Shown piece by piece: positions 42,568 through 54,918 of a stretch of DNA of 64,000 nucleotides. Both the position numbers and the translations under genes were made by a program. Source of the DNA: an uncultured bacterium (GTDB lineage Bacteria > Myxococcota_A > Polyangia > Polyangiales > Houyiibacteriaceae); assembly GCA_938024995.1 (NCBI GenBank), contig CALJDU010000006.1, positions 83,052 through 147,051 on the forward strand, in the 5' to 3' direction. The notes beneath the pieces are model-generated. The model ran no database searches. It had not been told where the DNA came from and saw only the letters and a program-made list of their open reading frames with translations. Positions within the stretch are counted from its first letter, which is position 1. Each line of letters begins with the position of its first letter.

Positions 42568-42671
42568 GGGCAAGTAGCTCTGCATTTGCTGTCGAAGCAT
42601 CGCGCGAGAAACTAGATTAGAATTTAAAAGCCTGCGTTTCTGAGAAAAGATCAGAAACTTTGCTGATTCAG

Positions 42672-42699
42672 TTGACACGCGGGGAGGGCGGCGTTAAAT
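42672..42699 (+). promoter_or_regulatory. Sigma70-like promoter candidate (TTGACA-16 nt-TTAAAT) inside an AT-rich block at the left edge of the tRNA island
   Basis: ttgacacgcggggagggcggcgttaaat; the only strongly AT-rich patch (42600-42670) in a 68% GC context. Confidence 0.3.
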
Positions 42700-43594
42700 C
42701 AGAGACACGATGGTTCGCACCACTCAAACACAAAGTCCCAACACGAGGCGCTATGCGTCCGTAACGGCGACGAATGAGTGCCCTGAGGCCCTTCGACTCT
42801 CGTTCAAATCAATCAGATCCATGTTTTCCCCTTCGTTTATGTCGACCACGAGTCATCACGTTCCGAGCGAGCGTGAGGTTGCGCGTCAGGCCCTGGCCTG
42901 CGCGGACGCGGCTTGGGTGTTGGCCCAAACGTCCCCTGTTCAGAAGCCGAGCGTTCTTCGCGGTCTTGACCTCGACACCCACGGCATTTGTGATGGAGGA
43001 GAAAACTAGGCGGTTGCAGAAAAGACTCATGAAGTCCTTTCTCAAGCTGCCTCCCCCGAGGTGGCTTTTTTTGTGTTCGTCGTCTTCGGGCCATGTTCAC
43101 CACGCCTGACCGCTTGACCGCCTCTCCAGACCGATTTCAACAGCCTTCACCTCCACCACCCATCCTCAAGGACTCCGCCTTCCAGAGCGTCCCCCATGAA
43201 CTCCTCGCAGCCCTCGCAACCTCCAGATCTCATCGGCGCTCTGCCTGCTTCGCGCGGCTTGGGTCCAGATCGAGGACCGCTTTCAGCGTCGCTTTGGTGT
43301 CGGATCGTGGGCGTGAGGGCCACGAAGCGTATTTTGCGCGGTGGACAAACGGTGAATATGGATGTGACAAACAAAGAAGAGAGTCATATCAAACGATATA
43401 AAATGTCATTTGGAGACGTGAAAGTGCTCCAAAGCATCGAGAGCCACATGTCTGAGCCTTTCAGCCGCCTCGGCGGTACCGCAGCGCGCATCGCGTGTCT
43501 TCGCGGACAGGGAACGCTCCGCTCGGGTTAGCTACGAGGTCGCACCGCGATCCACGAGCCGCCCGAGCATTCGAGGCGGCTCTTTTTGTTCTCA

Positions 43595-43673
43595 ACGAGC
43601 GGAGCCGTTGGTGCGGCACGCGGGTTGTAACCCCGCCGGCTCTGTCCAAGGAGGTTCGATTCCTTCCCGCTCG
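43595..43673 (+). tRNA. tRNA-Tyr (anticodon GUA), class II with long variable arm
   Basis: Acceptor cgagcgg/ccgctcg perfect; anticodon arm gcggg-TTGTAAC-cccgc; 13-nt variable arm; T-arm ggagg-TTCGATT-ccttc; short D-loop. Confidence 0.5.
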
Positions 43674-43678
43674 ACTGG

Positions 43679-43836
43679 GTTTTGGGAGGGTCTGTTCGGA
43701 CCCTCCCTCCAAATAGCCAAGTGATTTGGAGCCTCCCTCCTACGTTCGCTTCGCTCAGTTTTTGGAGGGTCTGTTCGGACCCTCCCTCCAAATAACCAAG
43801 TGATTTGGAGCCTCCCTCCTACGTTCGCTTCGCTCA
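43679..43836. repeat. Two tandem 79-bp copies of array repeat family (hairpin ggagggtc-tgttcg-gaccctcc + tail ttggagcctccctcctacgttcgcttcgctcag)
   Basis: Directly visible; copies 43679-43757 and 43758-43836 are ~97% identical. Confidence 0.8.
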
Positions 43837-43941
43837 TCGCTCCTTCGTCGCTCTTGTTCGTGCTCGCGTGCGTTCGTTTCCTCGTCACTCGCTTCGCTCG
43901 TTTTCGCCAACCCAACCCAACCCAACCTCAACACACAACAC

Positions 43942-44013
43942 GGGGCATTAGCTCAAAGGCTAGAGCAGCCGGCTCTTAACCGGTCGATCAGGGTTCGAGT
44001 CCCTGATGCCCTA
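43942..44013 (+). tRNA. tRNA-Lys (anticodon CUU)
   Basis: Canonical cloverleaf: ggggcat / gctc-aaaggct-gagc / gccgg-CTCTTAA-ccggt / caggg-TTCGAGT-ccctg / atgccct. Confidence 0.75.
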
Positions 44014-44167
44014 CCGCGCTCACGCGATCTCCGGATCGCCGCGGCGCCACGGCCGAGGTGCGCGCTTCGCGAGCCTCACGACCCTCGGGTCACCGTTGTT
44101 CTCGTTCTTTTGAAAACTCATGGATCGGTCGCCATCGGGCGCTCGATCTCATCTGAAGCACACACGT

Positions 44168-44240
44168 TCCGGATTGGTCCATTTGGTGAGGGCGCACGGC
44201 TCTGAACCGTGAGGGCGGGGTTCAAATCCCTGATCCGGAT
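44168..44240 (+). tRNA. tRNA-Gln (anticodon CUG)
   Basis: U1-A72 acceptor (tccggat/atccgga); D stem gtcc/gggc; anticodon arm cacgg-CTCTGAA-ccgtg; T-arm cgggg-TTCAAAT-ccctg. Confidence 0.6.
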
Positions 44241-44572
44241 CTGGTGTTCGCCTCGGTCATGCACGGGCTGCGTATTCGCGCTTGTCATCGACCAAGGCTG
44301 TGCCGCGGGACTCGTCCCGTTTTCAACCTGCTCGTCTCTCGGAGGAGAGGCGGGTGGAGCAGGTCGCTCCCCAAGGGAACGTCCTGGTGCTTCAGAGCTC
44401 CTTGAAAATCTGGGGACGCAGGGCGGTGTAGCGCCTGCCCTGCTCAAGTTCATTCGGTCTCGTGCCGCGTGGAGAGTTCACGCTCTTCGCGCGGCACGTC
44501 AGACCGGTATTCGTCGGGCCACCGTCCCCATCGATCGCTTCACCGTGATCGATGGGAGGGCCCGGCGCGTAT

Positions 44573-44647
44573 TCCGCTGAAGCTCATTGGAAGAGCACCC
44601 GGCTGTTAACCGGAGGGGTGCAGGTTCGAGTCCTGCCGGCGGAGCCA
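44573..44647 (+). tRNA. tRNA-Asn (anticodon GUU)
   Basis: tccgctg…cggcgga-G-CCA; loop CTGTTAA; T-arm gcagg-TTCGAGT-cctgc; CCA encoded. Confidence 0.75.
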
Positions 44648-44650
44648 AAT

Positions 44651-44723
44651 GTTTGGGTGGCGTAGCTGGTGCGCGCGCTTGGTTGAAGCCCAGGAGGAGC
44701 TGGTTCGATCCCGGCCCCAAACA
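44651..44723 (+). tRNA. tRNA-Phe (anticodon GAA)
   Basis: gtttggg/cccaaac acceptor; D gcgt/gcgc; anticodon arm cttgg-TTGAAGC-ccagg; T gctgg-TTCGATC-ccggc. Confidence 0.7.
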
Positions 44724-44761
44724 CCGGTCGATGGCTGTCATGCAGCCAGCGACCAAAGCAA

Positions 44762-44837
44762 CCGCTTGTCGTCTAACGGTTTAGGACGCTCGTCTGATAC
44801 ACGGGCAATGGAAGTTCGATTCTTCCCAAGCGGACCA
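44762..44837 (+). tRNA. tRNA-Ile (anticodon GAU)
   Basis: ccgcttg/caagcgg acceptor; anticodon arm ctcgt-CTGATAC-acggg; T ggaag-TTCGATT-cttcc; CCA encoded. Confidence 0.6.
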
Positions 44838-44902
44838 TGTTCTGTTCGACGGAACGAAAAACGCGCCGCCGAGGCGACGCGTTCTACGCTCTTCCGAGCC
44901 GC

Positions 44903-45955
44903 CTACCAGCGCACGAAGCGCGAGATGCGGCGCACGCGGGAGTGGCTGGAGCCATCCGAGTCGAGCGAGAGCTCGGCGAGTGTGGTGGAGTTTACGTGCG
45001 GGCCCACCGAGCTGTCGGAGACCGGGCTGTTTGCGTCGGCGCCGAGGTTGTAGGACCAGCATGCGCTGTAGTGCTGAGTCACGCTTGCGTACGCGGTCGA
45101 GCAGTTCGTGGTCGGGGAAGTGTCGTCGTCGCGGTCGAACGAGGACCAGCCCGCGTTCACCTGCGAGTTGAAGACGCCCATCGAGCCCGAGACGAACGTC
45201 GCAGAGATGCGCATTCGAACGGGATCGAACGCGCTCATGTCCGCGCGGACCGCGATTCGCTCAACGCCTCGTCGGTCTTCGAACACATCCATGAGGTCTC
45301 CTGTCGCGGCGATCTCGTAGAGCGAGCCATCGTAGAAGTTGGAGTTGATGCTGGGGCGACCGCGTCGCTCGAGGCGATTGCCGTAGGGGATGCGCCAGAA
45401 CTGAAGGGTGTTCGTTCCGAGGAGCGAGTTGTAGAGAAGCGCCCAACCACCACCGTCGAGCTCTTGCTCGCAGTACACCTCGACGACTTCCGAGCCAAGC
45501 ATCAGCCAGGTCGGACCCGATCGCGTCAAGCCTGCGTCACGCGCGGCCGCACAGCTCGCGGCGGGGTTGTCCATCGTCAATCCAGGGAGCGCGGGACCGG
45601 CTGCACCCGGTGCGCCGTCCATTCCTGGAGTTCCGGCGGCACCTGGTTCACCCGGCGCACCATCCGCTCCGTTCGTTCCGTTGATGCCGTCGGTGCCGTT
45701 CATCCCGGGCATGCCGGGGGCGCCCGATTCGCCGTTACAGATGGCGACGATCTGCTCGCCCGCTTGTATCTCGGCACCACCGTTCGCGCATCGCGGATCA
45801 CCCATGGGGATCGGCGTGACGCTCGGTGCGGGACCTGGCGTACCCATCGTGCCCATCTCGCCCATCGCGCCCATCTCTCCAGGCGGACCTTCTGTGCCTG
45901 TGCAGGCAACCAACAGTGTGAGCGCCGCGAGGGCAACCAGCTTCAAGTTGTTCAT
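44903..45955 (-). CDS. Lipoprotein with collagen-like Gly-X-Y triple-helix repeats and C-terminal fibrinogen-related (FReD) domain (ficolin-like architecture)
   Basis: Signal MNNLKLVALAALTLLVAC|TG. Two interrupted GXY runs: GPPGEMGAMGEMGTMGTPGPAPS … GESGAPGMPGMNGTDGINGTNGADGAPGEPGAAGTPGMDGAPGAAGP (about 18 GXY triplets in total), then …YCEQELDGGGWALLYN…FWRIPYG…NCSTAYASVTQHYSACWSYNLGADANSP resembling the fibrinogen C-terminal domain. Start at internal ATG 45955. Confidence 0.6.
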   Translation of the reverse strand: MNNLKLVALAALTLLVACTGTEGPPGEMGAMGEMGTMGTPGPAPSVTPIPMGDPRCANGGAEIQAGEQIVAICNGESGAPGMPGMNGTDGINGTNGADGAPGEPGAAGTPGMDGAPGAAGPALPGLTMDNPAASCAAARDAGLTRSGPTWLMLGSEVVEVYCEQELDGGGWALLYNSLLGTNTLQFWRIPYGNRLERRGRPSINSNFYDGSLYEIAATGDLMDVFEDRRGVERIAVRADMSAFDPVRMRISATFVSGSMGVFNSQVNAGWSSFDRDDDTSPTTNCSTAYASVTQHYSACWSYNLGADANSPVSDSSVGPHVNSTTLAELSLDSDGSSHSRVRRISRFVRW

Positions 45956-46039
45956 GTCTAACGATCTCCGAAAACCGGGGATCGAAGCGTCCTCCAAATA
46001 GGTCACGTTGGTTCGATTTGACCTGCTCTGTACAGATTT

Positions 46040-46111
46040 GCTCTCGATGCTCGATGGACGAGCAACCGTCTTCTAAACGGCTCGCTGCGGGTTCGACTCC
46101 TGCCGAGAGCG
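46040..46111 (+). tRNA. tRNA-Arg (anticodon UCU)
   Basis: gctctcg/cgagagc; D gctc/gagc; loop CTTCTAA; T gcggg-TTCGACT-cctgc. Confidence 0.7.
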
Positions 46112-46115
46112 CCGG

Positions 46116-46189
46116 ACCTTCGTGGCTCAAAGGAAGAGCGCGCGTTTCCTAAACGCGTGATGAGAGTTCGAGTCTCTCCGAAGGTGCCA
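46116..46189 (+). tRNA. tRNA-Arg (anticodon CCU)
   Basis: accttcg/cgaaggt; D gctc/gagc; anticodon arm cgcgt-TTCCTAA-acgcg; T gagag-TTCGAGT-ctctc; CCA encoded. Confidence 0.75.
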
Positions 46190-46262
46190 ACGATCTGGTG
46201 GCTCTACGCGCAGCGCTATCGCTTCGCTCACGGGCTTGCTTGCAAGCTCATCAAGTTCTTTA

Positions 46263-46335
46263 CGCCGGGCTCTGGGAAAGCTGGTTGGTTTCCAAATCCG
46301 ACTGCAGGCGAGGTTCAACTCCTCGACTGTGTTTT
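46263..46335 (+). pseudogene. tRNA-Trp-like pseudogene (CCA anticodon loop, degraded acceptor/D-arm)
   Basis: Near-identical to the 46467-46541 copy but with a broken acceptor 3' strand and a T·T in the anticodon stem. Confidence 0.3.
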
Positions 46336-46412
46336 TTGGAGGGTCTGTTCGGACCCTCCCTCCCAACGAACAAGTAGTTGGGAGCCTCCCTCCTACGTTC
46401 GCTTCGCTCAGT
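46333..46412. repeat. Array repeat family copy (hairpin + tail)
   Basis: ttggagggtctgttcggaccctccctcccaacgaacaagtagttgggagcctccctcctacgttcgcttcgctcag. Confidence 0.8.
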
Positions 46413-46466
46413 CGGATTCGCTTCGCTCATGGCTTGCTTGCACGCAGCCGTCAGCACCTTTTACGC

Positions 46467-46541
46467 CGGGCTCTGGGAAAGCTGGTTGGACTCCAAATCC
46501 GACTGCAGGCGAGGTTCAACTCCTCGACGGCGTGCCGCGCT
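46467..46541 (+). pseudogene. tRNA-Trp-like element (anticodon CCA), non-canonical D-arm; possible pseudogene
   Basis: Acceptor acgccgg/acggcgt (6/7 bp); anticodon arm ttgga-CTCCAAA-tccga; T cgagg-TTCAACT-cctcg; no foldable D stem. Confidence 0.3.
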
Positions 46542-46567
46542 CAGATGAGCGTTCCTTTGCAGTGATG

Positions 46568-46636
46568 AGTGGTTCTGGGGAGGGTTCATACCCCTCCCTT
46601 CGTCAGTTCGATTCTGACCGCTGCATCTGAGTTTCT
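46568..46636 (+). pseudogene. tRNA-Met-like element (anticodon CAU) with truncated D-arm
   Basis: Acceptor tgcagtg/cgctgca; 7-bp anticodon helix with loop TTCATAC; T gtcag-TTCGATT-ctgac; 5' half is 4 nt short. Confidence 0.3.
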
Positions 46637-46710
46637 TGGAGGGTCTATCCGACCCTCCCTCCCAACGAGCAAGTAGTTGGGAGCCTCCCTCTTTTGTTCG
46701 CTTCGCTCAG
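46632..46710. repeat. Array repeat family copy
   Basis: ttggagggtctatccgaccctccctcccaacgagcaagtagttgggagcctccctcttttgttcgcttcgctcag. Confidence 0.8.
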
Positions 46711-46847
46711 CGGGTTCGCTTCGCTCACGTCGTGCTCGCTGGCGTCAGCTCGCGAGCAGGAGAGCAAAAAACTGTCGGTCGTTCGTCGACCATGGCGGCA
46801 CGGCGGGCCGTCGCGTGCATCGGTGCGAAAGCAACGGTGCGCGCTTT

Positions 46848-46919
46848 GCCTTTCAAGCGTAGATGGCGACGCCCTCCGCTCGTAACGGGGAGAGCTGGGT
46901 TCAAGTCCCAGGAAAGGCT
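46848..46919 (+). tRNA. tRNA-Thr (anticodon CGU)
   Basis: gcctttc/gaaaggc; D gcgt/acgc; anticodon arm ctccg-CTCGTAA-cgggg; T ctggg-TTCAAGT-cccag. Confidence 0.7.
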
Positions 46920-46926
46920 CTGAGTA

Positions 46927-47003
46927 TTTTGGAGGGGCTGTCCGCCCCTCCCTCCCAACGAACAAGTAGTTGGGAGCCTCCCACCCATGTTCGCTTCGCT
47001 CAA
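46927..47003. repeat. Array repeat family copy (ggagggg-ctgtccg-cccctcc variant)
   Basis: Followed directly by MITE-like element Y (46990-47100). Confidence 0.8.
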
Positions 47004-50334: not shown

Positions 50335-50351
50335 ATCACGCAGTGAATTAA

Positions 50352-50421: not shown

Positions 50422-50453
50422 CTGGGTCTCCGGACCTTAACATCCGAGTGTAG

Positions 50454-50530: not shown

Positions 50531-50565
50531 GTCGCAAACATCACTGGCGTCGCGAGCACGTCGAT

Positions 50566-50660
50566 GAGCGAAGCGAATCCGCTGAGCGAAGCGAACATGG
50601 GAGGGAGGCTCCCAACTACTTGCTCGTTGGGAGGGAGGGGCGGACAGCCCCTCCAAAAAG
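50566..50660. repeat. Array repeat family copy, inverted orientation
   Basis: gagcgaagcgaatccgctgagcgaagcgaacatgggagggaggctcccaactacttgctcgttgggagggaggggcggacagcccctccaa. Confidence 0.75.
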
Positions 50661-50665
50661 CACAG

Positions 50666-50741
50666 CAGGGTGAAGTCTTGTCGGGAAGACGCTCGTCTGG
50701 GAGGCGAGAGGTTGCTGGTTCAACTCCAGCCACCCTGACCA
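50666..50741 (+). tRNA. tRNA-Pro (anticodon GGG)
   Basis: cagggtg/caccctg; anticodon arm ctcgt-CTGGGAG-gcgag; T gctgg-TTCAACT-ccagc; CCA encoded. Confidence 0.8.
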
Positions 50742-50746
50742 ATTTG

Positions 50747-50820
50747 GTTTCCATAGTGAAAAGGAATCACACGAGCTTGCGGAGCTCGCATTCTAGGTTC
50801 GAGTCCTAGTGGAAACGCCA
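50747..50820 (+). tRNA. tRNA-Arg (anticodon GCG)
   Basis: gtttcca/tggaaac; D gtga/tcac (same D-arm as Arg-CCG); anticodon arm cgagc-TTGCGGA-gctcg; T ctagg-TTCGAGT-cctag; CCA encoded. Confidence 0.7.
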
Positions 50821-50881
50821 ATCGAGCCTGCTCGAGTCGACGCACGCTTGGAGAGAGCCGGCGAGCATGAGAGCAAGCTGC

Positions 50882-51050
50882 TCGCTGATGCGGACTAGGG
50901 ACGCGCAAAGCGCGAACCGAAGGGAGCATCAATCACGCGGCGCGATGGGGGTGAATGCCGAAGGCAGAGGGGGGAACGCCCTGCAAGCGGTCGTGGTGAT
51001 GCGGACAAGGTACGCGCAAAGCGCGAACCGAAGGGAGCATCGCGCACTGC
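50882..51050. repeat. Two direct ~50-bp repeats (gatgcggac.agg.acgcgcaaagcgcgaaccgaagggagcatc) separated by ~70 bp
   Basis: 50882-50931 and 50999-51049 differ at about 3 positions. Confidence 0.6.
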
Positions 51051-51124
51051 CGCGCGCAGCAGAGCGAAGCGAACGGCGGGAAGCGCGAAGCGCTGGGGTC
51101 TGCGACTCAGACCCCATAGATTTA

Positions 51125-51205
51125 GCCTAGGTGGCGGAACGGTTTACGCAGCGGTCTCAGACTCCGTGCCCTCAAGGGATGCAGGTTCGACTCCTGTCCT
51201 AGGTA
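51125..51205 (+). tRNA. tRNA-Leu (anticodon CAG), class II
   Basis: gcctagg/cctaggt; 3-bp D stem gcg/cgc; loop CTCAGAC; variable-arm hairpin ccc-tcaa-ggg; T gcagg-TTCGACT-cctgt; A73. Confidence 0.6.
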
Positions 51206-51337
51206 CCGCGCTCAGCGATGAGCGTTACACGATCGAAATGGTTCGGTCGTGGTCAGTCGCGCTCGGATCCTCTCCGAGCCGATGCTGTTCGCGTTTGCGA
51301 GCGGCGCCATTTGGCGCGCGCGTGACCACGTGCGCGC

Positions 51338-51880
51338 ATGAAACGCGCAAACCGCGCGAGGAGGTGGCCCATGCGCACGCTCGTACTGGACCAAGGTTAC
51401 CAACCGCACCGCATCGTCTCCTGGGAGAAGGCGGTCACCATGCTCTACGTCGGAAAGGCCGACCTCGTGGAGCACTACGACGACGAGATCCGCTCGACCA
51501 GCATGACGATGTTCATGCCGGCGGTCGTTCGGCTCACCCGCGGGCTCAAGTACCGCAAGAAGTCGATCAAGTTCTCGCGGCTCAACGTCATGATGCGTGA
51601 CGGATTCTCCTGCCAGTACTGCGGCACCGAGATGAAGATGCGCGACCTCACGTACGACCACGTCCTGCCGCGCGCGCGCGGAGGGAAGACCACGTGGACG
51701 AACATCGTGACCGCGTGCCGTGACTGCAACGAGCAGAAGGCCGACCGCACTCCGAAGGAGGCAGGGATGCCCCTTCTGAAGAAGCCCATCAAGCCGCTCT
51801 GGCTGCCGACAGGATCGTTTCACGTAGACGACCTCCGGCTCCCCGAGACCTGGCGGAACTGGGTGTCGTGGGCTGCCTAA
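51338..51880 (+). CDS. HNH endonuclease
   Basis: HNH motif YDHVLPRARGGKTTWTNIVTACRDCNEQK (His-Asn-His plus a Cys zinc finger); sits inside the tRNA array. Confidence 0.75.
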   Translation: MKRANRARRWPMRTLVLDQGYQPHRIVSWEKAVTMLYVGKADLVEHYDDEIRSTSMTMFMPAVVRLTRGLKYRKKSIKFSRLNVMMRDGFSCQYCGTEMKMRDLTYDHVLPRARGGKTTWTNIVTACRDCNEQKADRTPKEAGMPLLKKPIKPLWLPTGSFHVDDLRLPETWRNWVSWAA

Positions 51881-51928
51881 AGCAGCACTTGTTCTCGCTC
51901 GCTTGAGCTTGTCTCGAGCGAGCATCCA

Positions 51929-52002
51929 CACCACTGTGGCCCAACTGGAAGAGGCGTCTGACTAAGGATCAGAAGGTTGTGAGTTCGAATCTCACCAGTG
52001 GT
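51929..52002 (+). tRNA. Class-I-length tRNA with Leu anticodon AAG and A73 (unusual)
   Basis: accactg/cagtggt; D gcc(c)/ggc; perfect anticodon arm tctga-CTAAGGA-tcaga; 5-nt variable loop; T gtgag-TTCGAAT-ctcac. Confidence 0.5.
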
Positions 52003-52006
52003 ACCG

Positions 52007-52079
52007 AACCATCGTGGCCCAACGGAAGAGGCACCTGTTTCAAACTCAGGGTGTTGTGAGTTCGACTCTCACCGATGGT
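52007..52079 (+). tRNA. Class-I-length tRNA with Leu anticodon CAA and A73 (paralog of previous)
   Basis: accatcg/cgatggt; same D-arm; anticodon arm cctgt-TTCAAAC-tcagg (U·U closing pair); T gtgag-TTCGACT-ctcac. Confidence 0.45.
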
Positions 52080-52087
52080 ACCGATTA

Positions 52088-52400
52088 CTTGGGGGGATTT
52101 TTCGATCCCCCTCTCTCCCGTTGGTCGACTCACCCCAAACGTTCGCTCCGCTCTGGCTGCGCGCGAAGTGCGCGCCGCTCCTCGACCGGTCGCTTTGCTC
52201 CCCATCTCGTTGCGTCACCACGTCGCTTGCTCTTGTTTCCTAAGGGGATTTTTCGAGACCCTTCTCGGCTTCGCCGATTCATCCCAAACGTTCGCTTCGC
52301 TCTGCTGCGCACACAAATGCGCGACGCTCTCTTCGGTCAGCGCTTTGCGCTTCCCTTGTCGTGTCACCAATTGTGTTTGCTTCATGCTTGCTCGCTCGTC
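52088..52400. repeat. Two ~150-bp direct repeats of hairpin + conserved tail (ggggattttcgatcccc… / ggggatttttcgagaccc… …ccaaacgttcgct(c/t)cgctctg(g)ctgcgc)
   Basis: 52088-52240 and 52245-52400 share ~70% identity, including the palindromic head and acgttcgcttcgctc tail. Confidence 0.6.
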
Positions 52401-52515
52401 TCTGCACCTTTGGTGCGTTCGACTTGCTTTGCGGCTCCGAAACTACGCGTCGCATTCCGCGGCGCTTCGCGTTCGTGTTCTTTCTGTTGCCGCGGGTGGA
52501 CGCGAACGTGAATCT

Positions 52516-52599
52516 CGAAGGTAATTTGATCTGGAGATCAACGCCGCCTTGAAAGCGGAGGGAGCCGAGAGGCTTGGAGTTCAATTCTTCTACCTTCGG
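52516..52599 (+). tRNA. tRNA-Ser (anticodon UGA), class II with unusual 5-bp D-hairpin
   Basis: cgaaggt/accttcg perfect; D hairpin tgatc-tgga-gatca; anticodon arm ccgc-CTTGAAA-gcgg; variable hairpin gcc-gaga-ggc; T-loop TTCAATT. Confidence 0.45.
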
Positions 52600-52604
52600 C
52601 AAGT

Positions 52605-52688
52605 GGAAGAGGATCTGATCCGGGATCAGGGCCGAGTGGAAATCGGTGCGCGCCTTCTCGGCGTGGGGTTCGACTCCTCTCTCTTCCT
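52605..52688 (+). tRNA. tRNA-Ser (anticodon GGA), class II with unusual D-hairpin
   Basis: ggaagag/ctcttcc perfect; D hairpin ctgat-ccggg-atcag; anticodon arm ccga-GTGGAAA-tcgg; 6-bp variable hairpin cgcgcc/ggcgtg; T gggg-TTCGACT-cctc. Confidence 0.45.
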
Positions 52689-52859
52689 CCCTTCCCAACA
52701 ACAACCGTCGCGAGCCCTCGCGCGGCAGCCACCGCGGAGCGAGCGTTCAAACACCAAAGCGAAGCGACGTGTTTGGACTGTCGCGGAGCGGGCGAACGAA
52801 TGTGAGCGTGGGTGAATGCGCGAAGCGCAGAGGGGCGCAATCGCCCCTTCAAACAACAT

Positions 52860-52947
52860 CGAAGACAAACTGATCTGGGATCAGGCCTGCCTCGAAAACA
52901 GTGCGCGCCTTGATCGGCGTGAGGTTCGATTCCTCTGTCTTCGGCCA
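52860..52947 (+). tRNA. tRNA-Ser (anticodon CGA), class II with unusual D-hairpin
   Basis: cgaagac/gtcttcg-G-CCA; D hairpin ctgatc-tggg-gatcag; anticodon stem ctg(c)/(a)cag with compensatory C-G to U-A change versus the GGA paralog; loop CTCGAAA; T gagg-TTCGATT-cctc. Confidence 0.45.
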
Positions 52948-53060
52948 CTGCCCGCGGAGCTCGGCAACGAGACCTGCAAGAGCTCCTCCCGTCACTCGCG
53001 GTTCACCGGCACCTCATCAGGTCCGGTCGCTTCGCACCCACGCGCTCATCTGCGCTCTTT

Positions 53061-53137
53061 GTCCTTGTCGTCTAATGGTTCAGGATTTTCCGGCTTTCAA
53101 CCGGTGGATGCGGGTTCGAATCCCGCCGGGGACGCCA
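53061..53137 (+). tRNA. tRNA-Glu (anticodon UUC)
   Basis: gtccttg…cggggac-G-CCA; D gtct-aatggttc-agga; loop CTTTCAA; T gcggg-TTCGAAT-cccgc; closely matches the E. coli Glu pattern. Confidence 0.8.
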
Positions 53138-53188
53138 TTCTCATCGCGCCATCGCGCATCACTTTTCACCGCTCACCTTGAGGTCGTC

Positions 53189-54589
53189 ATGGAATCGCTC
53201 GTCCACGCCGCGCCGACTGAGGTGCGCAAACGAAATGAACACACGTCCCCAGAGTCGCGCGTCGCGCTTTACGCGGCGATCGGCAGCCCGCGTTCCATTC
53301 TCAGAGCGCGACCCACAACGGAAGAGCGACGGATCGAAGACGCGGAAGTGGTCTCGGCCGCCGCGCGTGTGTCCCCCAAGTTCCTCGCTGCCCACGCGCT
53401 CGCCTCGCGCGCGCTCGGGGAGTCTTCCCGTGCGCCCGCGCTCTTGTGCGCGCTCCTCTCTCATCGGGATCCGGCTCTCCTCGCGGAGGTCTTCCCATGC
53501 GTCATCAATACGCCCGCGCTCGTGCGTCGCTTCGTCGGCGTTGTGCGCTCGGGCGTGAGCGGTCGTCGCTCGCTCGGGAGCGCGCCGAAACGCTTGATCG
53601 CGCGTTGGCTGCGATCGCTGTCAGACGACGCGGTGCTGACGAACGGCGCGAAGCTGCGCGACGTGATCCGCTTGTCTCATCCGCGACCTCGGTCCCGTGC
53701 CCGTGCGGCGCTGTATCGGCTTCTGCTCTCACGTCCATACGATGCCCATCGCTTGCCGAGATTGGCGAGCATGTGGGTCGCGTCCCAGAGCGGTGGCGAT
53801 ATCGACGAGCTCCCGCTCTCGCTCTGTCGCGTTAAGAAGGTCGGGATCCGCGCTCCGAGCGAGTATCTCCCTGCAGTCGCGCGAGCGTCTGCGCATGAGC
53901 TCGTGACGTCGCTCGATTGGCTGCGCGGGTTCGCCGACGACGCGCTCGTGGCCGCGGTCGCGACGCGACTTCGTGAGGCACGGGCCGAAGATGTGCGTCC
54001 CTACGCGCTGCTCCGTCTCCTTCGCGCGACGAGCTCACCCCGCGAGTGGGTGGACGCTGGGTTTTCACTTCTCGATCGCGCGAGTGAACGATCGAGCGAG
54101 GTTCGCGGGACGCTCGTCGTGGACACGAGCGCTTCGATGACCGCGCCCCTCTTCGCTACGCGAGGTGAGCGTCGAGATCCGATCGATGGACTGGATGTCG
54201 CGGCGCTCCTCATGACGACCCTCCGGGGACCTCATTTGCACGTGGTCGACTTCGCGGGTCGCCCGCTCTCGTCCGAGGGCGGCGTCCAAGATGTTCGCGG
54301 TCGTCTGGGGAATCTCCTCAGCTCGCCGCGTTCTGTCTCAAGCGCGATCGAGCAGCGGAGCGGAGAAATGATCGTGGTCACCGACGACGTCGGCTCGGAG
54401 CGCGCCTTGGCGCGTCTTGGTCAACGTCATGGCGCCGCGCTCAGCGTCGTCGACCTGTGCCCGACGAGCGTGGGTCAAGTGGCCGTCCGCTCCACCCGTT
54501 TCGCGGGTTTCAACGACATCTCGCTTCAGGTCCTGATGGACCGCGCCCAGCAAAAGACCTCTGTCCAGGAGGCCCGCTGGGCGTCTTAA
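53189..54589 (+). CDS. rsr: Ro60/TROVE-domain protein with C-terminal vWA domain (Rsr, Ro sixty-related RNA-binding protein)
   Basis: Recalled TROVE-like motifs: GRRSLGSAPKRLIARWL resembles GWGRGLR.AVA.WY, and NGAKLRDVIRLSHPRP resembles GWSHRDLLRLAHPKP. C-terminal MIDAS motif in LVVDTSASMTAP. Start ATG 53189 (an alternative TTG at 53177); the longer ORF 52901.. overlaps the tRNAs. Confidence 0.65.
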   Translation: MESLVHAAPTEVRKRNEHTSPESRVALYAAIGSPRSILRARPTTEERRIEDAEVVSAAARVSPKFLAAHALASRALGESSRAPALLCALLSHRDPALLAEVFPCVINTPALVRRFVGVVRSGVSGRRSLGSAPKRLIARWLRSLSDDAVLTNGAKLRDVIRLSHPRPRSRARAALYRLLLSRPYDAHRLPRLASMWVASQSGGDIDELPLSLCRVKKVGIRAPSEYLPAVARASAHELVTSLDWLRGFADDALVAAVATRLREARAEDVRPYALLRLLRATSSPREWVDAGFSLLDRASERSSEVRGTLVVDTSASMTAPLFATRGERRDPIDGLDVAALLMTTLRGPHLHVVDFAGRPLSSEGGVQDVRGRLGNLLSSPRSVSSAIEQRSGEMIVVTDDVGSERALARLGQRHGAALSVVDLCPTSVGQVAVRSTRFAGFNDISLQVLMDRAQQKTSVQEARWAS

Positions 54590-54706
54590 ACACCTCACGT
54601 CTCTTTTCCGTCGCGCCGCCCGCGATGGCTTGGATCCGCGTGAGTCACTTGAGAGCACTCCTGGATGGCGTTGAGATCGCGCCCGTGCTAATCCCGTCCC
54701 CGATTT

Positions 54707-54780
54707 TCCGGAGTCGTCTAATGGCAGGACAGCGGACTTTGAATCCGTGAATGGTGGTTCGAATCCACCCTCTGGAACCA
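54707..54780 (+). tRNA. tRNA-Gln (anticodon UUG)
   Basis: U1-A72 acceptor tccggag/ctctgga-A-CCA; anticodon arm gcgga-CTTTGAA-tccgt; T ggtgg-TTCGAAT-ccacc. Confidence 0.8.
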
Positions 54781-54918
54781 AACCCAGCGCGAACCTCGCG
54801 CTGGGTCTTTTAATGGCGTGGTGTCTTCTCATGGCGTGCTTGGGCCAGCGTCCGCTTTGGCGGAGAGATTCGCTTCGTGAATCGCGACGTGTAGACTTAG
54901 CGCAGGAGGCTCTCTTTC

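What the first reader, a model, noticed from the sequence alone, without database searches (positions are those of the whole stretch)
42568..54790. Large tRNA gene array (~40 tRNA/tRNA-like genes in ~11 kb) forming a lower-GC island next to pabB and ~5 kb from dnaA
About 34 foldable tRNA genes and ~6 tRNA-like or pseudo copies are packed into 43.6-54.8 kb on the + strand. They carry anticodons for ~19-20 amino acids (Tyr, Lys×2, Gln×2, Asn, Phe, Ile, Arg×5, Thr×2, Gly×2, Glu×2, Asp×2, Ser×4, His-like×2, Ala×2, Val×2, Cys, Met, Pro×2, Leu×3, Trp-like). Flanking chromosome is ~68% GC; the block is visibly lower and has almost no ordinary ORFs. Many of the tRNAs have non-canonical D-arms yet show compensatory base changes between paralogs, which argues they are functional rather than decayed. 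The array also contains an HNH endonuclease, a Ro60/Rsr gene, a ficolin-like protein gene and a high-copy repeat. This composition resembles the mobile tRNA arrays of phages and integrative elements more than a housekeeping tRNA operon. I see no integrase in the window, so the mobility mechanism is unclear.
Basis: partly seen in the sequence, partly recalled or inferred. Interest (0 to 1): 0.9.

Follow-up and report, generated by a model that had tools for sequence, protein, structure and literature searches.

The report
Phage-related long tRNA gene array
An uncultured myxobacterium carries about 40 extra transfer-RNA genes in 11 kb, and this block is related to tRNA arrays of large phages but has sat at one chromosomal spot across related lineages; arrays of this kind are already known.

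Summary
ARAGORN finds 34 tRNA genes on the + strand at 43596-54780, six more appear at a lower threshold, and there are none elsewhere in the 64 kb. The block also holds an intact HNH endonuclease, a divergent but real Ro60/TROVE gene, a collagen/fibrinogen-like gene and a structured ~80-nt repeat.

It is a long tRNA array of the known 'L-array / tRNA array unit' kind. Its HNH is homologous to the HNH next to the Anabaena and Mycolicibacterium arrays. Its closest viral homologues lie inside arrays of 30-46 tRNAs on eight IMG/VR contigs. The window's anticodon order is collinear with seven of those eight. Five of them also carry a TROVE gene in the 3' part of the array.

The block does not look recently mobile. 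No integrase is present, and its protein genes have host-like GC3. The lower GC simply reflects non-coding DNA. Arrays sit next to pabB in two diverged relatives, while a third relative has only a single tRNA-Gln(UUG) there. The window's last tRNA matches that native tRNA-Gln at 93%.

The array lacks initiator and ordinary elongator Met tRNAs, so it cannot be the cell's only tRNA set. The most likely function is a supernumerary back-up tRNA operon; this is inferred, not shown. Verdict: a new member of a known kind, of moderate interest.

The parts
43596..54780 (+). Whole tRNA array: 40 predicted tRNA genes, all co-oriented, 3.6 per kb
43512..43587 (+). Conserved leader just 5' of tRNA-Tyr. It ends in a terminator-like hairpin (43556-43582) plus a T-run.
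   Evidence: The match to relative L096 (85% over 190 nt, window 43509-43688) includes this stretch, while sequence further upstream is not conserved. Fold. Weak Rfam RcsR1-like hit at E 0.0098.
43596..43675 (+). tRNA-Tyr(gta), class II
   Evidence: Nearly identical in L096, where the few changes include G-C to G-U in the anticodon stem.
43942..44015 (+). tRNA-Lys(ctt)
   Evidence: Rfam 66.8 bits; 92% to L114
44168..44241 (+). tRNA-Gln(ctg)
44573..44647 (+). tRNA-Asn(gtt), CCA encoded
44651..44725 (+). tRNA-Phe(gaa)
44762..44837 (+). tRNA-Ile(gat), CCA encoded
44903..46006 (-). Collagen-repeat / fibrinogen-C-like putative lipoprotein on the opposite strand; probably a host gene lodged in the array
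   Evidence: Pfam Collagen 4.3e-11 and Fibrinogen_C 1.6e-5. No homologue in the viral arrays. GC3 0.77.
46040..46113 (+). tRNA-Arg(tct)
46116..46189 (+). tRNA-Arg(cct), CCA encoded
46262..46330 (+). Truncated pseudo-copy of the Trp-like tRNA; the 3' acceptor strand is lost
46463..46536 (+). tRNA-Trp(cca) with a short D arm
   Evidence: Low-threshold ARAGORN. Weak Rfam hit at 46462-46534. Homologous to Trp tRNAs of L100, L103 and the viral arrays.
46848..46920 (+). tRNA-Thr(cgt)
47006..47093 (+). 88-nt MITE-like element with inverted ends
   Evidence: 98.9% identical copy at 21368-21455 on the other strand
47245..47317 (+). Decayed Thr(tgt)-like copy; the T-loop is lost
   Evidence: family D7: 77% to the Thr(cgt) unit
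47355..47427 (+). tRNA-Gly(tcc)
47591..47667 (+). tRNA-Glu(ctc), CCA encoded
47673..47745 (+). tRNA-Asp(gtc) copy 1, with U at position 37
47772..47845 (+). tRNA-Asp(gtc) copy 2, with U at position 37 and CCA encoded
   Evidence: 90% identity over 70 nt to L103 Asp by blastn; 88% by global alignment.
47874..47947 (+). tRNA-Gly(gcc), CCA encoded
48096..48184 (+). tRNA-Ser(gct), low-scoring
48419..48492 (+). tRNA-His(gtg)-like copy 1
   Evidence: Aligns with L103 His.
48537..48608 (+). tRNA-Ala(cgc)
48652..48725 (+). tRNA-His(gtg)-like copy 2
48746..48819 (+). tRNA-Pro(tgg)
   Evidence: Rfam 29.1 bits
48865..48937 (+). tRNA-Ala(tgc)
49130..49202 (+). tRNA-Thr(ggt)
49367..49440 (+). tRNA-Val(tac) copy 1
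   Evidence: Part of a 236-nt tandem unit with copy 2 (family D12, 94%).
49603..49676 (+). tRNA-Val(tac) copy 2
49866..49940 (+). tRNA-Lys(ttt), CCA encoded
   Evidence: Rfam 69.3 bits
49947..50022 (+). tRNA-Arg(acg), CCA encoded
50187..50259 (+). tRNA-Cys(gca), reduced D arm, CCA encoded
   Evidence: Rfam 31.3 bits
50261..50334 (+). tRNA-Arg(ccg), CCA encoded
50352..50422 (+). Short-D-arm tRNA(CAU), 71 nt; neither initiator-like nor a standard elongator Met
   Evidence: no Rfam hit. Conserved in L103, L095, L089, L093 and Mx1, with 13 of 20 pairs showing compensatory change. L114 also has Met(CAU) tRNAs with the anticodon at position 31-32.
50444..50520 (+). tRNA-Pro(cgg), CCA encoded
50666..50741 (+). 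tRNA-Pro(ggg), CCA encoded
50747..50820 (+). tRNA-Arg(gcg), an unusual anticodon; paralogue of Arg(ccg)
   Evidence: Also present in L114.
51125..51207 (+). tRNA-Leu(cag), class II
51338..51880 (+). HNH_5 endonuclease with both CxxC pairs and the D-H...N motif intact, nested among the Leu tRNA genes
   Evidence: Pfam HNH_5 4.6e-18. 47% to the Mx1 HNH, which is also flanked by tRNA-Leu. 51-58% to HNHs inside 8 viral arrays. 69-72% to HNHs in arrays L100, L103 and L114. 39.6% to the Anabaena pCC7120delta HNH.
51930..52005 (+). tRNA-Leu(aag) with a short variable arm
   Evidence: 84% to a Gordonia phage tRNA-Leu.
52008..52082 (+). tRNA-Leu(caa) with a short variable arm
   Evidence: Short Leu tRNAs also occur in the Anabaena array.
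52515..52600 (+). tRNA-Ser(tga)
   Evidence: Rfam tRNA-Sec model 53.3 bits, above gathering
52605..52690 (+). tRNA-Ser(gga)
52860..52947 (+). tRNA-Ser(cga), CCA encoded
53061..53137 (+). tRNA-Glu(ttc), CCA encoded
53189..54589 (+). Divergent Ro60/TROVE + vWA protein, 466 aa
   Evidence: No Pfam hit. phmmer E 3e-37 to TROVE proteins at 29-35% identity. Family-invariant residues and the DxSxS MIDAS motif are kept. AF2 model pLDDT 78.8. The top 10 PDB fold matches are all Ro60/Rsr, probability 1.0. A TROVE gene lies in the 3' part of the array in 5 viral arrays, and Mx1 carries one in its tRNA region.
54707..54780 (+). tRNA-Gln(ttg), host-type; probably the native gene that bounds the array
   Evidence: Rfam 63.2 bits. 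93% to the lone tRNA-Gln 3 kb downstream of pabB in array-less relative L115. 95% over 61 nt to L100. Best match among the viral Gln(ttg) genes is 82%.
54782..54816 (+). Strong intrinsic terminator (11-bp stem, 8 G-C pairs, T-run) two bases after the last tRNA
43681..43839 (+). Two tandem copies of the ~80-nt structured repeat
46334..46413 (+). ~80-nt structured repeat
46634..46712 (+). ~80-nt structured repeat
46927..47005 (+). ~80-nt structured repeat, starting 7 nt after Thr(cgt)
47952..48028 (+). ~80-nt structured repeat, after Gly(gcc)
48189..48347 (+). Two tandem copies of the ~80-nt repeat, after Ser(gct)
49208..49286 (+). ~80-nt structured repeat, after Thr(ggt)
49448..49520 (+). ~80-nt structured repeat, after Val copy 1
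49684..49755 (+). ~80-nt structured repeat, after Val copy 2
50102..50180 (-). ~80-nt structured repeat, inverted copy
   Evidence: (family D20)
50580..50658 (-). ~80-nt structured repeat, inverted copy
48939..49007 (+). Second repeat type (hairpin + ...CCCAAAACGTTCGCTTCGCTCT). Further copies lie at 52086-52154 and 52235-52303.
   Evidence: family D15. Related copies outside the array at about 29145-29216 and 29337-29398.

Best explanation
This is a long tRNA array ('L-array' / tRNA array unit) fixed in the chromosome of an uncultured Myxococcota lineage. About 39 array-type tRNA genes sit on one strand between a pabB-like gene and what is probably the native tRNA-Gln(UUG) gene. An HNH endonuclease gene and a Ro60/TROVE gene lie among them, and a strong terminator closes the unit.

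Shown:
- The array belongs to one family with arrays on IMG/VR viral contigs, which look like large phages. The shared features are the order of anticodons, the HNH next to the Leu tRNAs, a TROVE gene in the 3' part of the array (five of the eight), and peculiar short-D-arm tRNAs.
- It is also related to chromosomal arrays beside pabB in other uncultured relatives.

Inferred history: an ancestor acquired a phage-type array, or donated one to phages, upstream of its native tRNA-Gln(UUG). Phage arrays also end in a Gln(UUG) gene, which may have served as the recombination point. The array was then inherited vertically, evolved fast, lost some members (initiator and elongator Met, Thr-UGU), gained a host gene, and was colonised by host repeats.

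Inferred function:
- The array is a supernumerary, near-complete set of elongator tRNAs, transcribed as one or a few long precursors and probably expressed conditionally.
- It would keep translation going when housekeeping tRNAs are depleted or cut, for example under translational stress, tRNase toxins or anticodon-nuclease defences. This is the role shown for the Anabaena L-array and proposed for phage tRNAs.
- The HNH enzyme would spread or maintain the array by homing-type double-strand breaks repaired from an array-bearing copy.
- The Ro60 homologue would handle misfolded or damaged small RNAs.
For: Array and density:
- 34 + 6 tRNA genes, co-oriented, 3.6 per kb.

HNH link to known arrays:
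- 39.6% identical to the HNH beside the Anabaena trn array, and 41% to the one inside the Mycolicibacterium pCBMA213_1 array.
- That neighbourhood is described in PMC8421152.

Phage link:
- All 8 IMG/VR contigs holding its closest viral HNH homologues (51-58%) have 30-46 tRNAs around the HNH.
- The longest common order with the window is 17-20 genes in 7 of the 8. Shuffles give about 9 on average, 14 at most, and 0 of 2000 reach the observed value.
- 5 of the 8 have a TROVE gene in the 3' part of the array, 43-48% identical to the Mx1 TROVE protein.
- In Mx1 the HNH is flanked by tRNA-Leu genes, as here.

Chromosomal residence:
- Both junctions occur in independent assemblies.
- Relative L096 (pabB 71% aa) has tRNA-Tyr at the same place.
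- L114 (pabB 52% aa, HNH 70%) has 25 tRNAs plus the HNH about 2 kb after pabB, beyond TetR and cupin genes. Its order is collinear with the window (13 of 19 shared anticodons, 0 of 2000 shuffles).
- L115 (pabB 57%) has no array, only a tRNA-Gln(ttg) that is 93% identical to the window's last tRNA.

Not the sole tRNA set:
- There is only one CAU tRNA, of the short-D-arm type, whereas the viral arrays also hold initiator-like and elongator Met tRNAs. No initiator-type anticodon arm occurs anywhere in the window.

Selection on structure:
- Acceptor stems have no mismatch in 34 of 40 genes, and T-loops are canonical in about 37 of 40.
- Compensatory changes occur between paralogues and across arrays.

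Fast evolution:
- Median 77% identity to L114 tRNAs, against 93% for the host-type tRNA-Gln at a similar pabB distance.

Functional precedent:
- PMC8421152 (inducible L-array that aids survival under translational stress).
- PMC10264068 and PMC11555353 (phage tRNAs that evade tRNA-targeting defences).
Against: - Expression, processing, charging and conditional induction are untested.
- The genome outside the 64-kb window could not be read, so 'supernumerary' rests on the missing Met tRNAs, not on a count.
- Only 15 of 40 tRNAs score >=55 bits with Rfam, against 150 of 251 in the viral arrays. At least two copies are clearly dead. Part of the array may therefore be decaying.
- The viral nature of the eight IMG/VR contigs rests on that database's classification. 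Their flanks show ribonucleotide reductase, a helicase and ParB, and none of them is among the close relatives of the Mx1 terminase.
- The direction of transfer (phage to cell or cell to phage) is not resolved.
- tRNA identities to the viral arrays (median 74%) are no higher than between unrelated bacteria, so homology rests on order and on the partner genes.
- An HNH at 61% identity sits alone among housekeeping genes in another Myxococcota contig, so the HNH by itself does not mark an array.
- No Y RNA was found near the Ro60 gene.
Confidence: 0.68

Rival explanations
1. Decaying relic: the array was acquired long ago from a phage, is no longer used, and is drifting towards loss. Stems look intact only because decay is slow and the copies are short.
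For: - Lower Rfam scores than the viral arrays: 15 of 40 versus 150 of 251 at >=55 bits.
- Dead Trp-like and Thr(tgt)-like copies.
- Loss of the initiator and elongator Met tRNAs that the viral arrays have.
- Spacers filled with repeats, including a MITE-like element with a 98.9% twin elsewhere.
- The Ro60 gene is very diverged, at 29-35% identity to every homologue found, and shorter than them at 466 aa.
- Half of the encoded CCA ends are degraded to CCG or CCT.
Against: - Arrays persist beside pabB in lineages as far apart as 52% pabB identity.
- HNH and Ro60 keep open reading frames with family-invariant residues and host-like GC3.
- Acceptor stems are perfect in 34 of 40 genes.
- Sequence between arrays has fallen to about 77% while cloverleaves are kept through compensatory changes. 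That is not expected without selection.
Confidence: 0.17
2. Native housekeeping set: this lineage keeps its main tRNA complement in one large operon near dnaA, as Firmicutes do, and phages copied it.
For: - All 20 amino acids are covered.
- The same locus is occupied in diverged relatives.
- The array lies close to dnaA, 5.3 kb away.
- The protein genes inside have host composition.
Against: - No initiator tRNA and no ordinary elongator Met.
- Many tRNAs are atypical: short-arm Leu, U37 in Asp, reduced D arms.
- The array tRNAs diverge far faster than the host-type tRNA-Gln.
- Relatives L115 and L116 lack the array at the pabB locus, and the DnaA relatives have none near dnaA.
- The HNH partner is typical of horizontally spread arrays (PMC8421152).
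Confidence: 0.05
3. Cargo of a currently mobile element (ICE, prophage or genomic island) whose integrase lies outside the window.
For: - Arrays elsewhere ride on ICEs, plasmids and phages (PMC4758250, PMC5966550).
- An HNH endonuclease is present.
- The array abuts a tRNA-Gln gene, and tRNA genes are a classic integration target.
Against: - No integrase, transposase, conjugation or phage structural gene lies in the 43 kb upstream or the 9 kb downstream.
- The flanking genes MTase, g39995 and pabB are syntenic with relative L096 right up to the first tRNA.
- The array lies 5' of the tRNA-Gln, not 3' as integrase-borne islands do.
- No match to any phage at megablast level.
Confidence: 0.05
4. 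Assembly artefact: a phage contig was wrongly joined to chromosomal sequence in the MAG.
For: Short-read assemblies break inside the array, and one of them collapsed a repeat unit.
Against: - The pabB-to-array junction is present in three independent assemblies and the array-to-RuvC/dnaA junction in two.
- A different organism (L096) shows the same pabB-to-tRNA-Tyr junction, and L114 shows pabB followed by an array.
Confidence: 0.02

Closest known systems
L-arrays / tRNA array units of bacteria (Tran et al. 2016, PMC4758250; Morgado & Vicente 2018, PMC5966550; Santamaria-Gomez et al. 2021, PMC8421152), e.g. the Anabaena PCC 7120 trn operon on pCC7120delta and the Mycolicibacterium pCBMA213_1 array
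   Same: - At least 20 co-oriented tRNA genes at more than 2 per kb.
- Near-complete amino-acid coverage.
- Patchy distribution among relatives.
- A homologous HNH_5 endonuclease beside or inside the array (39.6% and 41% identity).
- Leu tRNAs with short variable arms.
   Different: - The gene order is not collinear with either of those arrays.
- Here the array is chromosomal, beside pabB, in several diverged lineages.
- It carries a Ro60/TROVE gene and an array-enriched structured repeat.
- It has three gene-containing gaps of 0.7-1.6 kb, so it may be more than one transcription unit.
- No Myxococcota array turned up in two keyword searches. The supplementary species lists were not checked.
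tRNA arrays on IMG/VR viral contigs (L088-L095; contigs of 56-252 kb, predicted phages)
   Same: - Anticodon order is collinear in 7 of 8.
- The HNH follows the Leu cluster.
- A TROVE gene lies in the 3' part of the array in five of the eight.
- The array starts with Tyr and ends with Glu(ttc)-Gln(ttg) in most of them.
- Short-D-arm CAU, Trp and Cys tRNAs are present.
   Different: - The viral arrays are tighter and score higher with Rfam.
- They include initiator-like and elongator Met tRNAs, and one has a tmRNA.
- They lack the ~80-nt repeat and the collagen-like gene.
- Protein identities to the window are only 51-58% (HNH) and 28-35% (TROVE).
Myxococcus phage Mx1 tRNA region (OR576727.2, 43-64 kb)
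   Same: - It is the best hit for the HNH among the 50,697 phage records searched: 50.7% by tblastn, 47% over 171 aa by BLASTP.
- The HNH is flanked by tRNA-Leu genes.
- The same region holds a TROVE protein, many tRNAs and a short-D-arm CAU tRNA.
   Different: - The tRNAs are dispersed among protein genes over 20 kb.
- Their order is not collinear with the window: LCS 10 versus 8.6 expected.
- Mx1 is a phage genome, not a chromosome.
Bacterial and phage Ro60/Rsr with Y RNA (Chen et al. 2014, PMC4201824; Thermus phage Ro60, PMC12135203)
   Same: - TROVE ring plus vWA fold, with the MIDAS motif kept.
- The gene is surrounded by tRNA or tRNA-like genes on the same strand.
   Different: - No YrlA or Y RNA match within 4 kb.
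- The sequence is too diverged for the Pfam TROVE model.
- No rtcB or PNPase partner is visible in the window.
T4 segB homing endonuclease in the T4 tRNA gene cluster (as discussed in PMC8421152)
   Same: An endonuclease gene nested among tRNA genes, which could promote co-transfer of the neighbouring tRNA genes.
   Different: - SegB, to my knowledge, is a GIY-YIG enzyme, whereas this one is an HNH_5 enzyme.
- No cleavage site is known for this enzyme.

Membership tests
tRNA array unit (Tran et al. 2016, PMC4758250) | At least 20 tRNA genes in one region | tested here: met
   34 by ARAGORN default, 40 with low-threshold calls
tRNA array unit (Tran et al. 2016, PMC4758250) | Density of at least 2 tRNA genes per kb | tested here: met
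   3.0-3.6 per kb over 43596-54780
L-array (Santamaria-Gomez et al. 2021, PMC8421152) | Genes in one orientation and close enough to be one potential operon | tested here: inconclusive
   All are on the + strand, and strong terminators occur only at the two ends. However, three gaps of 0.7-1.6 kb hold genes, one of them on the opposite strand.
L-array (Santamaria-Gomez et al. 2021, PMC8421152) | Contributes supernumerary tRNA genes on top of a housekeeping set | not testable with these tools
   The rest of the genome is not available. Indirect support only: there is no initiator or standard elongator Met tRNA in the array.
L-array (Santamaria-Gomez et al. 2021, PMC8421152) | Patchy occurrence among relatives / spread by horizontal transfer | tested here: met
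   Present in L096, L114 and L100; absent in L115, L116 and near dnaA in the relatives L004-L012. Homologous arrays occur on viral contigs.
L-array (Santamaria-Gomez et al. 2021, PMC8421152) | Neighbouring homing-type HNH endonuclease homologous to the one beside the Anabaena trn operon | tested here: met
   tblastn 39.6% identity, E 1e-23, to the pCC7120delta HNH, which lies 200 bp upstream of 24 tRNA genes
L-array (Santamaria-Gomez et al. 2021, PMC8421152) | Silent in standard conditions, induced under translational stress | not testable with these tools
   No expression data
Phage tRNA array family (IMG/VR contigs L088-L095) | Shared order of anticodons | tested here: met
   LCS 17-20 in 7 of 8 arrays, with 0 of 2000 shuffles reaching it
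Phage tRNA array family (IMG/VR contigs L088-L095) | HNH_5 gene adjacent to the Leu tRNA cluster, and a TROVE gene in the 3' part of the array | tested here: met
Phage tRNA array family (IMG/VR contigs L088-L095) | Located in a phage genome | tested here: not met
   The flanks are chromosomal (pabB, RuvC, DnaA) and no phage structural genes are in the window
Ro60 / Rsr (TROVE) protein | TROVE HEAT-repeat ring followed by a vWA domain | tested here: met
   AF2 model pLDDT 78.8. The ten best PDB matches are all Ro60/Rsr, probability 1.0, TM 0.58-0.65. phmmer E 3e-37 to TROVE proteins.
Ro60 / Rsr (TROVE) protein | Match to the Pfam TROVE model PF05731 | tested here: not met
   No hit even at E<=10. 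The protein is too diverged.
Ro60 / Rsr (TROVE) protein | MIDAS motif DxSxS in the vWA domain | tested here: met
   D312, S314 and S316 fall in invariant columns of the 18-sequence alignment
Ro60 / Rsr (TROVE) protein | Y RNA (YrlA-like) gene within about 4 kb on the same strand (PMC4201824) | tested here: inconclusive
   No Rfam match at E<=1 over 41000-60500. The 117-nt spacer after the gene folds no better than shuffles, z -1.6. A divergent Y RNA or a tRNA-like stand-in is not excluded.
Integrase-borne genomic island / ICE / prophage | Integrase or recombinase, and insertion at the 3' end of a tRNA gene with direct repeats | tested here: not met
   No integrase in the window. The array lies 5' of the tRNA-Gln. 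att-type repeats were not searched for specifically.
Housekeeping tRNA operon (native complement) | Includes the initiator tRNA-fMet and an elongator tRNA-Met | tested here: not met
   The only CAU tRNA has C1-G72 paired, lacks the three G-C pairs at the loop end of the anticodon stem, and has a reduced D arm. No initiator-type anticodon arm occurs in the window.

The most novel reading that the evidence does not exclude
The tRNA array, its HNH endonuclease and its Ro60 homologue form one conserved, transferable 'translation rescue' cassette shared by large phages and Myxococcota chromosomes. In this reading Ro60 works on array-encoded tRNAs or tRNA-like RNAs in place of a classical Y RNA. The chromosomal copy, lodged upstream of the native tRNA-Gln(UUG), has been domesticated as standing protection against tRNA-cutting toxins or defence nucleases. 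The array-specific two-hairpin repeats would serve as processing or insulating signals in the long precursor.
Probability: 0.12. Interest if true: 0.75.

Novelty: new member of a known kind. Interest (0 to 1): 0.4.

Why it matters
Long tRNA arrays are known in cyanobacteria, actinobacteria, Firmicutes, Acidithiobacillus and many phages, but what they do in cells is still largely open.

This case adds three things:
- A chromosomal array in uncultured Myxococcota whose gene order ties it directly to arrays on predicted large-phage contigs.
- Evidence that such an array can stay at one locus through deep divergence while evolving fast. This argues for use rather than mere baggage.
- A recurring partnership of array, HNH endonuclease and Ro60 homologue, which suggests a link between spare tRNAs and RNA quality control.

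It also offers a concrete 'empty site versus filled site' comparison (pabB ... tRNA-Gln) for working out how arrays enter chromosomes. None of this overturns current views; it extends them.

Tried and rejected
- **Megablast of the whole block against 50,697 phage records:** no match. In distant mode, only single tRNAs and the HNH matched.
- **Search for the source genome in GTDB representatives with the 667-aa neighbour:** nothing found, so the genome itself is not held.
- **DnaA relatives (67-73% identity, Myxococcota MAGs):** they share no synteny around dnaA and have no array there, so they gave no empty-site comparison.
- **Pfam and PDB sequence searches for the Ro60 candidate:** empty. 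Homology appeared only through phmmer against the large protein collection and through fold comparison.
- **Y RNA search:** no Rfam hit, and the spacer after Ro60 is not unusually structured.
- **Core of the ~80-nt repeat:** no exact match in JGI metagenomes or IMG/VR, and it is absent from all related arrays.
- **Terminator reading of the repeat:** rejected, because the T-run precedes the hairpin in either orientation (sequence).
- **Sigma-70 promoter scan of the array:** none found.
- **PADLOC scan of neighbours:** only a type II methyltransferase and generic HNH hits.
- **Attempt to tie the eight viral contigs to Mx1 through its terminase:** different contigs came back.
- **tRNA sequence identity as evidence of phage origin:** uninformative, with a median of 74%.
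- **GC content as evidence of foreign origin:** rejected after splitting the block by feature class.

Full report

Yes. ARAGORN at default settings finds 34 tRNA genes, all on the + strand, between 43596 and 54780, and none in the remaining ~53 kb. Rfam confirms 25 at gathering score and about a dozen more at E<=1. Several of these fit the tRNA-Sec model better than the general tRNA model, a sign of unusual arms.

These are Trp (true span about 46463-46536), Ser(gct), two His(gtg), Cys and Ser(tga). The total is 40 genes for all 20 amino acids, or 3.6 per kb. There is also a truncated Trp-like copy (~46262-46330) and a decayed Thr(tgt)-like copy (~47245-47317).

The named protein genes are there:
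- pabB-like 41323-42567, HNH_5 endonuclease 51338-51880 and DnaA 60074-61504.
- RuvC 56182-56676 and a collagen/fibrinogen-like gene 44903-46006 on the opposite strand.

The 'Ro60' gene (53189-54589) gets no Pfam or PDB sequence hit. It does match TROVE proteins at E 3e-37 in the large protein collection and keeps the family's invariant residues, including the DxSxS metal site. Its predicted structure (pLDDT 78.8) matches only Ro60/Rsr structures among the top ten, all with probability 1.0. It is therefore a real but strongly diverged Ro60 homologue.

**2. Composition**

The flanks are 65.0% GC, not 68%, and the array is 61.3%. Split by feature, tRNA genes are 59.5% and spacers 59.9%. The three protein genes inside are 65.3%, with third-position GC of 0.74-0.88, like their neighbours. 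The dip is what any stretch without codon third positions would show. It is not evidence of foreign origin.

**3. Source and integrity**

The sequence comes from a metagenome-assembled genome (ENA ERZ6863655, a 289-kb contig). DnaA is 67-73% identical to that of Myxococcota MAGs, one of them labelled Sandaracinus. Neighbouring genes fit Myxococcota, for example a CarH-like MerR/B12 regulator.

The genome itself is not among the GTDB representatives. The pabB-to-array junction appears in three independent assemblies and the array-to-RuvC/dnaA junction in two. A chimeric join is therefore unlikely. Short-read assemblies do break inside the array.

**4. What the tRNAs look like**

Acceptor stems have no mismatch in 34 of 40 genes. 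T-loops read TTCRANY in about 37 of 40. U33 is present throughout. Seventeen genes encode CCA, and most of the others keep 'CC' followed by another base.

Oddities:
- Leu(aag) and Leu(caa) have short variable arms.
- Both Asp genes have U at position 37.
- Arg(gcg) and Leu(aag) are unusual anticodons.
- Trp, Cys, His and the single CAU tRNA have reduced D arms.

These oddities are not private decay:
- The short-D-arm CAU tRNA recurs in five other arrays, including phage Mx1. In that set, 13 of 20 base pairs show compensatory change.
- The Trp type recurs in L100, L103 and the viral arrays.
- Short-arm Leu tRNAs occur in the Anabaena array, and a Gordonia phage tRNA-Leu is 84% identical to Leu(aag).
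- Paralogues differ by paired changes, as in the Asp and Leu pairs.

Even so, the set is more eroded than its viral counterparts. Only 15 of 40 genes reach 55 bits with Rfam, against 150 of 251 in seven viral arrays.

**5. Relatives of the array**

The HNH was the key. Among the 50,697 phage records searched, its best hit is Myxococcus phage Mx1 (50.7% by tblastn; 47% over 171 aa by BLASTP). There the HNH also sits between tRNA-Leu genes, in a 20-kb tRNA-rich region that also holds a TROVE protein.

It is 39.6% identical to the HNH 200 bp upstream of the 24-gene Anabaena trn array. It is 41% identical to one inside the 32-gene Mycolicibacterium pCBMA213_1 array. That HNH-array partnership is already described (PMC8421152).

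A scan of IMG/VR returned eight viral contigs (56-252 kb) with HNH at 51-58% identity. All eight carry 30-46 tRNA genes around the HNH. The order of anticodons in the window is collinear with seven of them. The longest common order is 17-20 genes. Shuffles give about 9 on average and 14 at most, and none of 2000 reaches the observed value.

The shared backbone runs:
- Tyr, Lys(ctt), Gln(ctg), Asn, Phe ...
- Ala(tgc), Thr(ggt) ...
- Arg(acg), Arg(ccg), Met, Pro(cgg) ...
- the Leu cluster with the HNH ...
- Ser(tga, gga, cga) ...
- Glu(ttc), Gln(ttg).

Five of the eight also have a TROVE gene in the 3' part of the array, 43-48% identical to that of Mx1. The window's copy is only about 28-35% identical to any of them. 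The Anabaena, Mycolicibacterium and Mx1 orders are not collinear with the window.

The viral status of the eight contigs rests on IMG/VR. Their flanks encode ribonucleotide reductase, a helicase and ParB. They did not come up as close relatives of the Mx1 terminase.

**6. Chromosomal relatives and the locus**

The closest HNH homologues overall (69-72%) lie in other arrays on bacterial-looking contigs:
- L100: Leu x3, HNH, Trp, Gly x3, then Band_7, tRNA-Gln(ttg), FtsJ, CcmF.
- L103: 12 tRNAs. Its Asp, Lys and short CAU genes are 83-88% identical to the window's.
- L114.

An HNH at 61% is a lone gene among housekeeping genes, so the HNH alone does not define an array.

Three findings place the array in the history of the lineage:
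- **Relative L096.** It shows about 74% nucleotide identity across methyltransferase, g39995 and pabB, and 71% pabB protein identity. It has tRNA-Tyr at the same distance after pabB, and the contig ends right after it. The tRNA and about 85 nt upstream are far better conserved than the adjoining spacer.
- **Relative L114.** With pabB 52%, HNH 70% and GC 70%, it has a g39995-like gene, pabB, two small genes and then 25 tRNAs with the HNH. The order is collinear with the window (13 of 19 shared anticodons, 0 of 2000 shuffles) and includes Arg(gcg) and Met(CAU) tRNAs with the anticodon at position 31-32, as in the short-D-arm type.
- **Relative L115.** With pabB 57% on a 966-kb contig, it has no array. 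Its pabB is followed by three genes and a single tRNA-Gln(ttg). L116 also lacks an array at the pabB locus.

The window's last tRNA, Gln(ttg), is 93% identical to the L115 gene and 95% (over 61 nt) to the L100 gene next to FtsJ. Among the viral Gln(ttg) genes its best match is 82%. It is also one of the best-scoring tRNAs in the block and is followed at once by a strong terminator.

I read this tRNA as the native tRNA-Gln(UUG), with the array lying between pabB and it. Since most of the viral arrays also end in Gln(UUG), recombination through that gene is a plausible entry route. This is inference.

Array tRNAs are a median 77% identical between the window and L114. The host-type tRNA-Gln is 93% identical at a comparable pabB distance. 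The array therefore evolves under weaker, though not absent, constraint.

**7. Not the only tRNA set, and not visibly mobile now**

The viral arrays contain initiator-like, elongator and short-D-arm CAU tRNAs. The window keeps only the last kind. No initiator-type anticodon arm exists anywhere in the 64 kb. The cell must therefore have tRNA genes elsewhere.

No integrase, transposase, conjugation or phage structural gene lies in the window. The only defence-system hits are an orphan-looking type II methyltransferase and generic HNH matches.

**8. Repeats**

The 'high-copy repeat' is a unit of about 80 nt, with 11 direct and 2 inverted copies. It usually starts within about 10 nt of a tRNA 3' end. 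It forms two adjacent 8-bp hairpins followed by a conserved tail (...CCTCCCTCC..GTTCGCTTCGCTCA). Four pairs change on both sides while staying paired, and almost none are broken.

It is not a terminator, because the T-run precedes the hairpin. In the window it is confined to the array. It is absent from all related arrays. Its core has no exact match in JGI metagenomes or IMG/VR.

Two other small repeats in the spacers do have copies outside the array:
- An 88-nt MITE-like element at 47006-47093 has a 98.9% twin at 21368-21455.
- A hairpin-plus-tail family has relatives near 29.2 and 29.4 kb.

The spacers have thus been colonised by the host's own small repeats, which fits long residence. The function of the 80-nt unit, if it has one, is unknown. 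A processing or insulating role in a long precursor is a guess.

**9. How it most likely works**

Shown:
- It is a co-oriented array bounded by strong hairpin terminators.
- It has an intact HNH and an intact Ro60-fold protein.
- It is homologous to viral-contig and chromosomal arrays.
- It is retained at one locus in diverged lineages, with compensatory evolution of its stems.

Inferred:
- It supplies a spare set of elongator tRNAs that is normally little used. The set would become useful when housekeeping tRNAs are depleted or cleaved. This is demonstrated for the Anabaena L-array under translational stress (PMC8421152). It is proposed or shown for phage tRNAs facing anticodon nucleases and retron or PARIS-type effectors (PMC10264068, PMC11555353).
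- The HNH would act as a homing-type nuclease that copies the array into array-less alleles or related phage genomes.
- The Ro60 homologue would bind misfolded or damaged small RNAs. The jumbo-phage survey PMC7824862 places TROVE proteins among RNA-repair functions.
- The conserved hairpin just upstream of tRNA-Tyr could gate entry of transcription into the array. This is speculative.

The main rival is a slowly decaying relic, at about 0.17. The native-set, active-island and artefact readings are each unlikely.

**10. Novelty and score**

tRNA arrays, their horizontal spread, their presence in phages and plasmids, and their HNH neighbour are all published (PMC4758250, PMC5966550, PMC6409571, PMC8421152, PMC12803027).

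New here are:
- The host group: two keyword searches found no paper linking tRNA arrays to Myxococcota.
- The explicit collinearity with viral-contig arrays.
- The recurring Ro60 partner.
- The pabB ... tRNA-Gln filled-versus-empty site comparison.
- The array-specific structured repeat.

This makes it a new member of a known kind. Interest 0.4.

Noticed in passing
window 47006-47093 (+) and 21368-21455 (-), with a partial neighbour at 21287-21373: An 88-nt element with inverted ends (AATATTCTTTGTTCCG...CGGAACCAATAT) is present in the array and, at 98.9% identity, in an intergenic region 26 kb away. It looks like a recently active MITE.
   Followed up: partly
window ~29145-29216 and ~29337-29398; also 48939-49007, 52086-52154, 52235-52303: A second small repeat family has a hairpin GGAGGGTCTT..AGACCCTC and a tail ..CCCAAACGTTCGCT[TG]CGC. 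It occurs both outside and inside the array and shares its tail motif with the ~80-nt array repeat.
   Followed up: partly
window 43512-43587: About 75 nt just upstream of tRNA-Tyr lie within the 85%-identical match to relative L096, although the adjoining spacer is not conserved. The stretch ends in a long hairpin plus T-run about 10 nt before the tRNA. There is a weak Rfam RcsR1-like hit (30 bits, E 0.0098). It could be a small RNA, a leader or an attenuator.
   Followed up: partly
window 38678-41290 (methyltransferase 38678-39979 +, unknown 431-aa gene 39995-41290 -): A D12-class / type II-like DNA methyltransferase and an unknown 431-aa protein stay linked to pabB in L096. More weakly (26% identity), the 431-aa protein is also linked to pabB in L114. 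No restriction enzyme partner was recognised.
   Followed up: no
L093 7105-7513 and 9702-9778: One viral-contig array carries a tmRNA gene (Rfam 132.7 bits) and a tRNA with anticodon UUA, which would read the UAA stop codon.
   Followed up: no
L005 17438-18020 (- strand), 6-7 kb downstream of dnaA in a related MAG: Three clustered, low-GC, atypical tRNA genes lie in a 67% GC genome: Lys(ctt), His with anticodon ATG, and Met(cat). This may be another small foreign tRNA cluster.
   Followed up: no
L101 10001-10528: A 61%-identical HNH_5 homologue sits alone between an alpha/beta hydrolase gene and a tetrahydrodipicolinate succinylase-like gene on a 924-kb contig from a search whose named hits were mostly Myxococcota. 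There are no tRNAs within 10 kb, so this HNH family also exists as an ordinary chromosomal gene.
   Followed up: partly
L097 versus window 43681-43839: An independent short-read assembly has one fewer 79-nt repeat unit than the window. This is either repeat collapse or real copy-number variation. Assemblies of this region break at the repeats.
   Followed up: no
window 36224-37102 (-) and 37225-38625 (+): A CarH-like regulator (MerR HTH plus B12-binding domains) lies next to a protein with two DUF4397 domains. This is typical myxobacterial light-response hardware and is unrelated to the array.
   Followed up: no
Mx1 record 48.2-48.6 kb (L087 ~5190-5615) and L088 3563-4018, L091 8153-8578 and 9165-9665, L092 5819-6286, L095 3878-4342: A ~140-155-aa protein with no annotation recurs inside four of the viral arrays and in the Mx1 tRNA region, at 33-41% identity. 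It has no counterpart in the window.
   Followed up: no
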